Origin: Escherichia phage phiv142-3
Sequence record: MN187550.1
Strand: one strand, 5' to 3'
Length of the DNA stretch: 39,293 nucleotides
Part shown: one piece after another, positions 36,737-39,086 of the stretch
Layout: every line of letters starts with the position of its first letter
Numbering within the stretch: position 1 is the stretch's first letter
The notes under the pieces: generated by a model
Told to the model about the DNA's origin: nothing
Databases searched by the model: none
What the model saw: only the letters and a program-made list of their open reading frames with translations
Made by a program: the position numbers and the translations under genes

Positions 36737-37003
36737 ATGAACAAGGTTTCAATGCGCAGCCCTTCAAAGGTTGTTGCCGTTACTCCTGCGGCGATAGAGA
36801 TCGAAAAACGCGCGATTGAAAGAGAGAAAAAAGGGCAGTTCCGCATTGCCGCCCACCTTTGGCTTCAGTGTATGGATGTTGCTTCTGGTGATGTTGAACG
36901 TGCAAGGATCGCGGTTCGCAGGGACCAATGTATCACAAAAGGTAACGGCCTTCGCCGTGGCGACTATAGCGGCATAGGATGTTGCGGGGTGGTTTATGAC
37001 TAA
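36737..37003 (+). CDS. PerC-like transcriptional activator (prophage Pch-type)
   Basis: 88 aa; ...IEIEKRAIEREKKGQFRIAAHLWLQCMDV... resembles the PerC-family core (...GLWRRAATRWL...); an alternative start 15 nt downstream has an AAGG RBS. Confidence 0.45.
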   Translation: MNKVSMRSPSKVVAVTPAAIEIEKRAIEREKKGQFRIAAHLWLQCMDVASGDVERARIAVRRDQCITKGNGLRRGDYSGIGCCGVVYD

Positions 37004-37577
37004 GAAATACACACTAATCTATGCAGATCCACCCTGGGTATACCGGGACAAAGCCGCAGATGGTAATCGCGGTGCCGGTTTAAATATCCGGTTATGAGTG
37101 TGCTGGATATCTGCCGCCTTCCTGTGTGGGATTTGGCCGATGAAAACTGTCTGTTGGCCATGTGGTGGGTGCCAACACAACCACTCGAAGCACTAAAAGT
37201 TGTTGAAGCCTGGGGATTCCGTCTGATGACGATGAAGGCTTCACGTGGATAAAATGTGGTAGTCGACAACCAGATAAACTGGTTATGGGTATGGACACAT
37301 GACTCGCGCCAATAGTGAAGATTGCCTGTTTGCGGTAAAGGGAAAACTACCTACGCGCATTAATGCAGGGATCGTTCAGTCATTTACCGCACCGCGGCTT
37401 GAGCATTCAAGAAAGCCAGATGTCGTTCGTGAAAAACTTGTGCAATTGTTAGGCGATGTTTCTCGCATTGAACTGTTCGCCCGCCAGTCGTCTCATGTTT
37501 CGATGTTTGGGGTAATCAGTGCGAAGACCCGGCAGTGCAACTACACCCTGGATACGCGTTGGATATTGCCAGATTAA
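36996..37577 (+). pseudogene. MT-A70-family DNA adenine methyltransferase, disrupted by multiple frameshifts
   Basis: Methyltransferase motifs lie in three different frames: DPPW segment (MTKKYTLIYADPPWVY..., stops at ~37097), middle segment (MSVLDICRLPVWDLADENCLLAMWWVP...EAWGF..., stops at ~37250), and C-terminal segment (ORF 37299..37577: ...EDCLFAVKGK...EHSRKPD...IELFARQ...). Confidence 0.6.
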
Positions 37578-37638
37578 CAAATGCATTCAGCAATGCTCCG
37601 CTGTCACCAACAGACAACCAGGGGCGGGAGCGTGCTGC

Positions 37639-37833
37639 ATGAACAGGGCATCACCAGCAGATTTAAGAAAATGCCTTGAAACTGCAAACATGCTTGCACA
37701 CAGCGGGATCAGGTTTGTTCCAATTCCCGCTGTCACTGATGCTGAATTTGCAACACTGTCAGCAATATTCGAAAACAAAATTGAATCACTGGCAGCAGAA
37801 GCAGAGATGGAAGAAAATCAGCAGAACTATTAA
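37639..37833 (+). CDS. hypothetical small protein
   Basis: 64 aa from internal ATG (GGGAG RBS) of ORF 37519..37833; converges on the integrase gene. Confidence 0.4.
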   Translation: MNRASPADLRKCLETANMLAHSGIRFVPIPAVTDAEFATLSAIFENKIESLAAEAEMEENQQNY

Positions 37834-37836
37834 ACG

Positions 37837-39086
37837 TTATTCCCCCGCCATCCACTTCTCAAACTTCGACGGGGAGAACGGAATCAGATCCGTATGCTCC
37901 CCGTCAATCCATGAATCAATCATATCGGCCCACTGCTGCAACATGTAGGCGCGCTGTCTGGCGTATTCCGCTTTGTTATATACGGCGCGCACACCTTTCT
38001 GCTCATGTGCCAGAGCCTTTTCAATCCAGTCTGAAGGATAACCAGCCTCATGCAACAACGTACTGGCTGTACGGCGCATATCATGTACAGTGAAGTCCTG
38101 AATATGCTCACCATCTTCATTTATTATTTTCACCGTTCTGTCGATCAGAGAGTTCAGCGCGGCATTAGATAATGGCTTCCGGAAATTGTAACGACCAGGA
38201 ACCAGATATTCACTTCCACCAGCGCACATCTGCAACCCGACCAATATATCATGTGCCTGTTTAGGCAGGTAAATAACGTGCGCCCGGCTTCCCTTCATGC
38301 GGTCTGGAGGAATTGTCCATGTCCATTTTTTAAAATCTATTTCATCCCACGTTGCATTGGTGAATTCGCCCTTACGAACCATAGTGATAAGCACCAGTTT
38401 TAAAGCCATTTTCATAGTGCCCATAGCACCAATGGCATCCAGCGTGCGGAAGAACAGGCCAATTTCTTCTGGTGTCAGTGTTCGCTCTCGTGGTTTAAAT
38501 ATGGCGATAGACGAAGGTTTAATGTCAGCCGCAGGATTAAACAAACCATGACCACGGTCATTGGCGTGACGGTATACGCTACTGATGATCTCCCTGGCCT
38601 GCACTGCTGTTGCCCGGCCACCGCGTTCGACAATCCGGTCACACAAATCACGAACCATCGATGTGGTAATTTCAGCCATCATTTTATTGCCAAGAACCGG
38701 AAGTATGTCACGGTCGATCACCGCCTGTTCATTGCGCGGGTACTGTCAGCCAGGATGACGTGTTTCATATAACTGTCGGTATGTACCGCAAACGTCTCGG
38801 CACCACGAATCTTTTTGATACCGTCACGTTTAGCCGCAGCCGGTGACTGGCCTGCTTTAAGCAGCTTCTTTGCAGCAATCAGTTCTTCTCGCGCTTCTGC
38901 CAGGCTGATACCGTCACGCCCATACTGCCCGATTACCAGTGTTTCGCGGCGACCGTTGATACGGTAGTCATAGCGAAACGAGACCGTGCCTGACGTAAGC
39001 ACAGCTACATACAGCCCGTCACGATCGGAGACCTTGTACAGTTTGTCCTGCGGCTTGAGGTTTTTTAATTTTGTATCGGTAAGCAC
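37837..39086 (-). pseudogene. int: P4-type tyrosine integrase interrupted by a frameshift
   Basis: N-terminal arm-binding part (ORF 38718..39086, 122 aa, GTG start) and catalytic part (ORF 37837..38721, 294 aa, with HDMRRT...VYNKAEY active-site-like residues) are in different frames overlapping at ~38718-38721; together ~416 aa. A sequencing error cannot be excluded. Confidence 0.6.

What the first reader, a model, noticed from the sequence alone, without database searches (positions are those of the whole stretch)
36996..39086. Integrase and DNA methyltransferase next to the right att repeat both carry frameshifts
The P4-type integrase is split into two overlapping frames near 38720, and the MT-A70-type methyltransferase has its motifs spread over three frames. 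The rest of the prophage consists of long intact ORFs, so the damage is localised. If real, the element may be unable to excise efficiently while keeping a complete virion and lysis programme.
Basis: seen in the sequence. Interest (0 to 1): 0.6.

Follow-up and report, generated by a model that had tools for sequence, protein, structure and literature searches.

The report
Probable sequencing-error frameshifts in a prophage
The broken integrase and methyltransferase genes at the right end of this phiV10-like E. coli prophage differ from an otherwise base-for-base identical copy in another public assembly only by single missing bases in short runs, so they are almost certainly consensus errors and not gene decay.

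Summary
The integrase is split into 122-aa and 294-aa ORFs that overlap at 38718-38721. The MT-A70 methyltransferase (36996-37642) is spread over three frames.

The cause is five one-base deletions in short homopolymers: four in the methyltransferase and one in the integrase. A sixth lies at 36727-30, just upstream of or inside the 5' end of perC. A seventh lies in an intergenic A-run at 31879-85.

The window is a complete phiV10/epsilon15-type (Uetakevirus) prophage, bounded by the published 17-bp att core at the 3' end of guaA.

A draft assembly (GCA_022972815.1, contig JAGMOJ010000007.1) carries the same prophage. It shows 0 mismatches over all 39,293 bases. The only differences are those seven deletions, and there the methyltransferase (216 aa) and integrase (416 aa) are intact.

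None of 86-106 other relatives shares any of the six clustered deletions. The window has no private substitution in this region.

Seven deletions with zero substitutions is not how natural divergence looks. The frameshifts are most likely local consensus or assembly errors (about 85%). A real, very recent burst of -1 frameshifts is the minority alternative. Why the errors cluster in 2 kb remains unexplained. Interest is low.

The parts
1..17 (.). attL copy of the 17-bp att core AATCATTCCCACTCAAT
   Evidence: Read directly. It is the reverse complement of the published attP/attB core attgagtgggaatgatt of phiV10, epsilon15 and vB_EcoP_ZX5 (PMC9782041).
39277..39293 (.). attR copy of the att core; it contains the last 15 nt of guaA (codons I-E-W-E-stop on the minus strand)
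   Evidence: Read directly. In relatives guaA follows immediately.
37837..39086 (-). Tyrosine integrase gene (416 aa when intact), split after codon 119 by one missing base in the TT run at 38728-38729 (TTT or TTCC in relatives)
   Evidence: The deletion is absent from 86 of 86 relatives and from the twin assembly.
38718..39086 (-). Integrase N-terminal ORF, 122 aa (arm-type DNA-binding domain), ending ...STRAMNRR*
   Evidence: Pfam Arm-DNA-bind_3, 75 bits. This exact product is not on record in the gene index.
37837..38721 (-). Integrase C-terminal ORF, 294 aa (clipped core-binding domain plus catalytic domain). Its GTG overlaps the upstream stop codon (GTGA).
   Evidence: Pfam Phage_int_M from model position 28 and Phage_integrase, 72 bits. 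Not on record.
36996..37642 (+). MT-A70 family DNA methyltransferase gene (216 aa when intact) with four one-base deletions, in runs 37079-81 (T4 to T3), 37237-38 (G3 to G2), 37293-94 (G3 to G2) and 37497 (G2 to G1)
   Evidence: Restoring the four bases gives 611/611 nt and 216/216 aa identity to WP_000163460.1 of strain CE0007a.
37639..37833 (+). DUF1382 family gene, intact
   Evidence: Pfam PF07131, 105 bits. Identical to the twin.
36737..37003 (+). PerC-family regulator gene. Relatives are annotated from GTG 36705 (99 aa) or ATG 36752 (83 aa).
   Evidence: Pfam PerC; annotations.
36727..36730 (.). Sixth clustered deletion (A5 to A4). It affects only the long (GTG 36705) form of PerC, and otherwise falls in the 5' leader.
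   Evidence: Absent from 106 of 106 relatives.
36347..36595 (+). AlpA-family small HTH protein, the likely excision/directionality factor of the module; intact
   Evidence: Pfam Phage_AlpA. The role is inferred from established knowledge of AlpA-type factors that accompany P4-like integrases.
31879..31885 (.). Seventh deletion relative to the twin assembly (A8 to A7), intergenic in the immunity region
   Evidence: 6 of 47 relatives also have A7, so this one could be natural length variation.

Best explanation
The window is a complete phiV10/epsilon15-type (Uetakevirus) prophage integrated at the 3' end of guaA. Its integration module is an ordinary, well-known gene set: integrase next to attP, then DUF1382, the MT-A70 methyltransferase, PerC, an AlpA-like factor and RecT. 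The frameshifts in the integrase and methyltransferase are not biological. They are single-base under-calls in short homopolymers, left in a patch of poor consensus in this particular assembly; a locally thin or unpolished stretch of a long-read or older pyrosequencing-type assembly is the sort of cause I would expect. In the organism both genes are most probably intact and the prophage can most probably excise. What is shown: the deletions, their uniqueness, and the existence of an otherwise identical intact copy. What is inferred: that the difference arose in sequencing and not in the cell, and the technical cause of the local patch.
For: 1.. Contig JAGMOJ010000007.1 of GCA_022972815.1 tiles the whole window with 0 mismatches in 39,293 nt. 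The only differences are seven one-base deletions in the window. In that assembly the methyltransferase is called as 216 aa and the integrase as 416 aa.
2.. Against 71 full-length relatives, the window has 0 private substitutions but 6 private deletions in 36700-39080. The 71 relatives together show only 6 indel events, at most one each. The six deletions are absent from 86-106 of 86-106 aligned relatives.
3.. Against the IMG/VR and E. coli panel, the rest of the window shows 31 private substitutions and no unanimous private indel, which is the opposite pattern.
4.. Putting back four bases gives a methyltransferase identical in DNA and protein to WP_000163460.1. Putting back one base gives integrase WP_000954554.1 with one change (Q279H). 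There is therefore no other sign of decay.
5. All seven events are deletions, all of one base, all in mononucleotide runs.
6.. The truncated products and a sequence spanning the integrase lesion are found in no other public assembly searched.
7. Natural divergence in bacteria is dominated by substitutions (established knowledge). If indels were as much as 20% of changes, seven indels with no substitution would have a probability of about 1e-5.
Against: 1. The errors are strongly clustered: six in 2 kb and none in the first 31.8 kb (P about 1e-5). A uniformly noisy assembly would not give this.
2. The deletions hit runs of 2-5 bases, while eleven runs of 5-6 bases in 36700-39293 are untouched. 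This is not the classic length-dependent homopolymer under-call.
3. The twin contig runs unbroken through the module. The simplest technical cause, a repeated region that short reads could not polish, is therefore not supported.
4. I could not identify the window's source assembly, its sequencing technology or its reads. It is not shown that the twin assembly is the same isolate.
Confidence: 0.85

Rival explanations
1. The deletions are real and very recent. One clone of this lysogen suffered a local burst of -1 frameshift mutations near attR, for example during error-prone repair synthesis at a DNA break. DNA polymerase IV typically makes -1 deletions in short mononucleotide runs close to breaks (established knowledge of stress-induced mutagenesis in E. 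coli). The burst inactivated the integrase and methyltransferase and anchored an otherwise complete prophage.
For: The events are tightly clustered next to the att junction. All are -1 deletions in short runs, not in the longest runs, which resembles the polymerase IV signature. The rest of the prophage is untouched.
Against: Six hits in 2 kb with no accompanying substitution would need an error rate far above what is known for a single repair tract. No other assembly carries any of them. An identical prophage with intact genes exists. Sequencing error is a far commoner source of exactly this pattern.
Confidence: 0.1
2. This is ordinary gradual pseudogenisation of a domesticated prophage. The integrase and methyltransferase have been dead for a long time and are accumulating lesions under relaxed selection.
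For: There are several lesions in one 650-bp gene. Defective integrases are common in resident prophages (general knowledge).
Against: There are zero private substitutions in the module and zero substitutions against the twin over 39.3 kb. The repaired genes equal known intact alleles exactly. All 10 loci that encode the identical RecT, and 71 other relatives, have no indel in the integrase; one of the 71 has a single indel in the methyltransferase.
Confidence: 0.03
3. The split integrase is functional as two polypeptides, or is rescued by ribosomal frameshifting. The arm-binding domain and the catalytic fragment would be made separately, through the overlapping stop and start (GTGA at 38718-38721).
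For: The downstream ORF starts with a GTG that overlaps the upstream stop codon. The break falls between the arm-binding domain and the rest of the protein.
Against: The break removes the first part of the core-binding domain: the Phage_int_M match starts at model position 28 instead of 17. No relative has this arrangement. There is no slippery site or suitably spaced ribosome-binding sequence (read). The methyltransferase lesions in the same patch cannot be explained this way.
Confidence: 0.01

Closest known systems
Escherichia phage phiV10, Salmonella phage epsilon15 and Escherichia phages vB_EcoP_ZX5 and vB_EcoP_PAS61 (genus Uetakevirus), and the many E. coli prophages at the 3' end of guaA
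   Same: The att core is the same 17 bp. The insertion site and gene order are the same (lysis, tailspike, T7-gp14-like core proteins, capsid, portal, tRNA-Arg, terminase, replication, repressor, RecT, AlpA-like, PerC, MT-A70, DUF1382, integrase). DNA identity is 97-98% over shared parts.
   Different: In those phages and prophages the integrase (416 aa; the PAS61 gene is slightly longer as annotated) and the methyltransferase (216 aa) are single ORFs. The window has them broken by five one-base deletions. The accessory slots (tailspike cassette, the gene after tRNA-Arg, the early-region morons) differ, as is usual for this group.
The same prophage in draft assembly GCA_022972815.1 (contig JAGMOJ010000007.1)
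   Same: Identical at every aligned base over the whole 39,293-nt window, and in the same position next to guaA.
   Different: It is seven bases longer. The homopolymer runs at 31879-85, 36727-30, 37079-81, 37237-38, 37293-94, 37497 and 38728-29 each have one more base, and both genes are intact.
Residual homopolymer indel errors in long-read or pyrosequencing consensus assemblies (a known artefact class)
   Same: The errors are only single-base deletions, only in mononucleotide runs, with no substitutions. They give frameshifted genes that no other assembly shares.
   Different: Here the errors are concentrated in one 2-kb patch and spare the longest runs. This points to a local drop in consensus quality, not a genome-wide error rate. 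The technology could not be checked.

Membership tests
P4-like tyrosine integrases (phage integrase family with an N-terminal arm-binding domain) | Domain order Arm-DNA-bind_3 (DUF4102), then core-binding/SAM-like domain, then C-terminal catalytic Phage_integrase domain | tested here: met
   Pfam on the two window fragments and on the intact CE10 homologue. All three domains are above their cut-offs. In the window they are divided between two ORFs.
P4-like tyrosine integrases (phage integrase family with an N-terminal arm-binding domain) | One continuous polypeptide carrying both arm-binding and catalytic domains, as needed for arm-dependent recombination | tested here: not met
   Not met in the window as written: it is split after codon 119. 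It is met in the identical twin assembly, where the product is 416 aa.
P4-like tyrosine integrases (phage integrase family with an N-terminal arm-binding domain) | att site adjacent to the integrase gene, and recombination with a matching chromosomal core | tested here: met
   The 17-bp core is at both ends of the window, about 190 bp upstream of the integrase start. The same core was shown experimentally for ZX5, phiV10 and epsilon15 (PMC9782041). Activity of this copy was not tested.
MT-A70 family DNA (adenine) methyltransferases | Match to the MT-A70 profile over the whole domain, including the DPPW catalytic motif | tested here: met
   The intact homologue scores 80 bits over profile positions 1-172. 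The window fragments score 18 and 25 bits for parts of the profile. DPPW is present at residues 11-14 of the first fragment.
MT-A70 family DNA (adenine) methyltransferases | Methyltransferase activity and target sequence | not testable with these tools
   No experiment was possible. The adenine specificity comes only from annotation of relatives.
Uetakevirus (phiV10/epsilon15-like) temperate podophages | Genome of about 39 kb with the conserved structural, replication and lysogeny modules and integration at the guaA 3' end | tested here: met
   97-98% DNA identity to PAS61, phiV10 and ZX5 over shared regions, with the same gene order. The att core is identical.
Sequencing/assembly artefact (homopolymer consensus error) | The difference disappears in an independent sequence of the same DNA | tested here: inconclusive
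   An independent assembly with 0 substitutions over 39.3 kb lacks all seven deletions. It is not proven to be the same isolate, and the reads of the source were not available.
Sequencing/assembly artefact (homopolymer consensus error) | Error spectrum of one-base indels in mononucleotide runs, without substitutions | tested here: met
   Seven of seven differences are one-base deletions in runs, with 0 substitutions. There are 0 private substitutions against 6 private deletions versus 71 relatives.

The most novel reading that the evidence does not exclude
The six deletions are real and arose together as a local shower of -1 frameshifts next to attR, for instance from error-prone (polymerase IV type) repair synthesis after a failed excision or a break at the prophage junction. 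In one step this would convert an inducible phage into an anchored prophage. It would be a natural footprint of break-associated clustered frameshift mutagenesis, and a one-event route to prophage domestication.
Probability: 0.07. Interest if true: 0.6.

Novelty: not a real feature. Interest (0 to 1): 0.1.

Why it matters
As it stands, this matters mainly as a caution. A prophage that looks locked in by decay of its integrase is, on comparison with an identical copy elsewhere, an ordinary intact phiV10-like prophage with a patch of consensus errors. Annotating it as defective, or counting it as an example of prophage domestication, would be wrong.

Only if the deletions turned out to be real would it be of interest. 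It would then be a rare natural example of a clustered -1 frameshift burst next to an attachment site.

Tried and rejected
1. Exact look-ups of the truncated products (122-aa and 294-aa integrase fragments, 92-aa methyltransferase fragment) in the 153-billion-gene index found nothing on record.
2. Exact scans for a 39-mer or 29-mer spanning the integrase lesion found no hits in viral contigs, genome contigs, metagenome contigs or the 247 fetched loci. The control pattern with the full-length run hit 32 loci.
3. I looked for the window's own source in RefSeq complete E. coli genomes and in GenBank phages and did not find it. The best matches are mosaics of 97-99% identity.
4. Candidate private indels at 24268 and 27656 from the first small panel were rejected. 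They are a variable gene slot and a divergent junction, and are shared with or absent from relatives in the usual way.
5. The idea that the patch is a repeat which short reads could not polish is disfavoured. The twin short-read-style contig runs unbroken through it.
6. I looked for a shared sequence motif around the seven sites, such as a methylation site. None is apparent from the contexts. Only 31879-85 abuts a GATC.
7. Base composition of the patch is ordinary: GC 0.485 against 0.49 for the window.
8. A literature search for the twin assembly accession found nothing.
9. The portal protein look-up was too common to retrieve the twin contig. The Bbp19 protein, which carries a lineage-specific M80I change, did retrieve it.

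Full report
**What is in the window**

The 39,293-nt window starts and ends with the same 17 bases, AATCATTCCCACTCAAT. This is the reverse complement of attgagtgggaatgatt. [quoted passage not shown] The core contains the last four codons and the stop codon of guaA.

In relatives, guaA follows the right end of the window directly. Gene content and order match the phiV10/epsilon15 group (genus Uetakevirus), with 97-98% DNA identity to phages PAS61, phiV10 and ZX5 over shared parts. The window is therefore one complete prophage, from attL to attR.

**The observation**

- On the minus strand, ORFs 38718-39086 (122 aa) and 37837-38721 (294 aa) overlap by four bases.
- The 122-aa ORF carries the arm-type DNA-binding domain. 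The 294-aa ORF carries the core-binding and catalytic domains of a tyrosine integrase. Intact relatives have all of these in one 416-aa protein.
- The MT-A70 methyltransferase, 216 aa in relatives, is spread over ORFs in three frames between 36996 and 37642.

Alignment with the closest complete genome (E. coli CE10) shows the cause. There are six one-base deletions in the window, all in mononucleotide runs:

| Run in window | Change | Location |
|---|---|---|
| 36727-30 | A5 to A4 | at or before the start of perC |
| 37079-81 | T4 to T3 | methyltransferase |
| 37237-38 | G3 to G2 | methyltransferase |
| 37293-94 | G3 to G2 | methyltransferase |
| 37497 | G2 to G1 | methyltransferase |
| 38728-29 | one base missing from TTT or TTCC | integrase |

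The neighbouring DUF1382 gene, PerC from its internal start codons, and the AlpA-like gene are intact.

**Is the damage localised?**

Yes. I aligned the window to 247 related loci: seven stretches of phage or E. coli genomes, and 240 IMG/VR provirus loci fetched with the integrase, terminase and a tail protein.

- The six deletions are absent from every aligned relative: 106/106, 95/95, 93/93, 92/92, 91/91 and 86/86.
- No other unanimous private indel exists anywhere in the window.
- Elsewhere the window shows 31 private substitutions against this panel and no private indel.
- In a full-length alignment of 36700-39080 with 71 relatives, the window has 0 private substitutions and 6 private deletions. 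All 71 relatives together show 6 indel events, never more than one per sequence.
- If deletions fell evenly on all runs of two or more bases, six of seven within 2 kb would have a probability of about 1e-5.

**No other sign of decay**

The methyltransferase segment (611 nt) is identical to that of E. coli CE0007a except for the four missing bases. Adding them back gives protein WP_000163460.1 exactly. Adding one base back to the integrase gives WP_000954554.1 with a single change, Q279H. That change rests on a base that at least one other relative also carries.

**The decisive comparison**

I looked up window proteins that carry lineage-specific residues by exact sequence. RecT, the 824-aa tail protein and the Bbp19-like protein all led to the same contig, JAGMOJ010000007.1 of draft assembly GCA_022972815.1. 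Three overlapping loci from that contig tile the entire window.

- Window 1-20061 and 15372-27668 match at 100%.
- Window 25417-39293 matches with 0 mismatches and 7 gaps.
- The seven gaps are the six deletions above plus one in an intergenic A-run at 31879-85.
- In that assembly the methyltransferase is called as 216 aa and the integrase as 416 aa.
- Six of 47 other relatives share the window's A7 state at 31879-85, so that site may simply be polymorphic.

So an independent public sequence of the same prophage differs from the window by nothing except seven single missing bases, and it has both genes intact.

**Interpretation**

Natural divergence in bacteria is dominated by substitutions. 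A lineage with seven one-base deletions and no substitution in 39 kb, four of them in one 650-bp gene, is not what mutation and drift produce. Even if indels were a fifth of all changes, the chance would be about 1e-5.

This pattern is the familiar signature of consensus errors in homopolymers. No other assembly searched contains the truncated proteins or the lesion-spanning sequence. I therefore conclude, with about 85% confidence, that the frameshifts are errors of this assembly, and that the organism has an ordinary integrase and methyltransferase.

**What remains unexplained**

- The clustering is real and I cannot account for it.
- The errors spare eleven runs of five or six bases in the same region. 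This is not a simple length-dependent homopolymer under-call. It looks more like a short stretch where the consensus rested on very few or poor reads.
- A repeat that could not be polished is unlikely, because the twin contig runs straight through the module.
- I could not find the source assembly, so its technology and reads are unknown.
- I cannot prove that the twin assembly is the same isolate.

**Rival explanations**

- The main rival (about 10%) is that the deletions are real and arose together, for example during error-prone repair synthesis near the att junction. DNA polymerase IV characteristically makes -1 deletions in short runs close to breaks (established knowledge). The integrase would then be cut after codon 119, separating the arm-binding domain from a clipped core-binding domain and the catalytic domain.
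- Gradual pseudogenisation is contradicted by the complete lack of substitutions.
- A functional two-piece integrase, or programmed frameshifting, has nothing in its favour beyond the overlapping stop and start codons.

**Comparison with what is known, and verdict**

The module itself is already known: a P4-like integrase next to attP, followed by DUF1382, MT-A70, PerC, an AlpA-like gene and RecT, in a phiV10-type prophage at guaA. The frameshifts, which were the point of the finding, are most probably not a feature of the organism. Interest is low (0.1). It would rise to moderate only if accurate re-sequencing showed the deletions to be real.

Noticed in passing
window 31879-31885: An intergenic A-run in the immunity region is A7 in the window and A8 in the otherwise identical twin assembly. 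6 of 47 other relatives also have A7, so this run varies in length among prophages, or is error-prone in several assemblies.
   Followed up: partly
window 24070-24385 (between tRNA-Arg 23993-24069 and the terminase large subunit gene): The window and its twin have no gene in a slot where relatives carry different cargo: a Gp49-type gene of 112-123 aa, a 140-aa ORF or a 272-aa ORF. It is a variable accessory-gene slot next to the phage tRNA-Arg(TCT).
   Followed up: partly
window 2524-4653 (minus strand): The tailspike is a 709-aa pectate-lyase/glycosyl-hydrolase-28-type protein. Relatives with a 100% identical upstream 824-aa tail protein carry quite different cassettes here: an 879-aa GDSL-lipase type, a 952-aa Peptidase_S74 type or a 626-aa type. 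This indicates receptor-module swapping.
   Followed up: no
NZ_CP076267.1 and NZ_CP076264.1 (E. coli NADC1036), hits H40 and H41: The same strain has a 38,709-bp separate record that matches the window as well as its chromosomal guaA prophage does. This is apparently the excised circular phage genome assembled as an extra replicon. Mixed integrated and free phage DNA in a read set is common for this phage group and could disturb consensus near att.
   Followed up: no
window 36827-36832 (A-run inside perC): This A-run carries indels in 3 of 71 relatives (L002, L011, L087). PerC of strain Ecol_AZ162 is annotated as frameshifted there. It is either a natural slippage hot spot or a recurrent sequencing error.
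   Followed up: partly
window 36705-36752: The start of perC is annotated inconsistently among relatives: GTG giving 99 aa, or an internal ATG giving 83 aa. The deletion at 36727-30 would matter only for the long form.
   Followed up: no
window 38718-38721: The stop codon of the integrase N-terminal ORF overlaps a GTG that opens the C-terminal ORF (GTGA). This arrangement could allow re-initiation if the deletion were real.
   Followed up: partly
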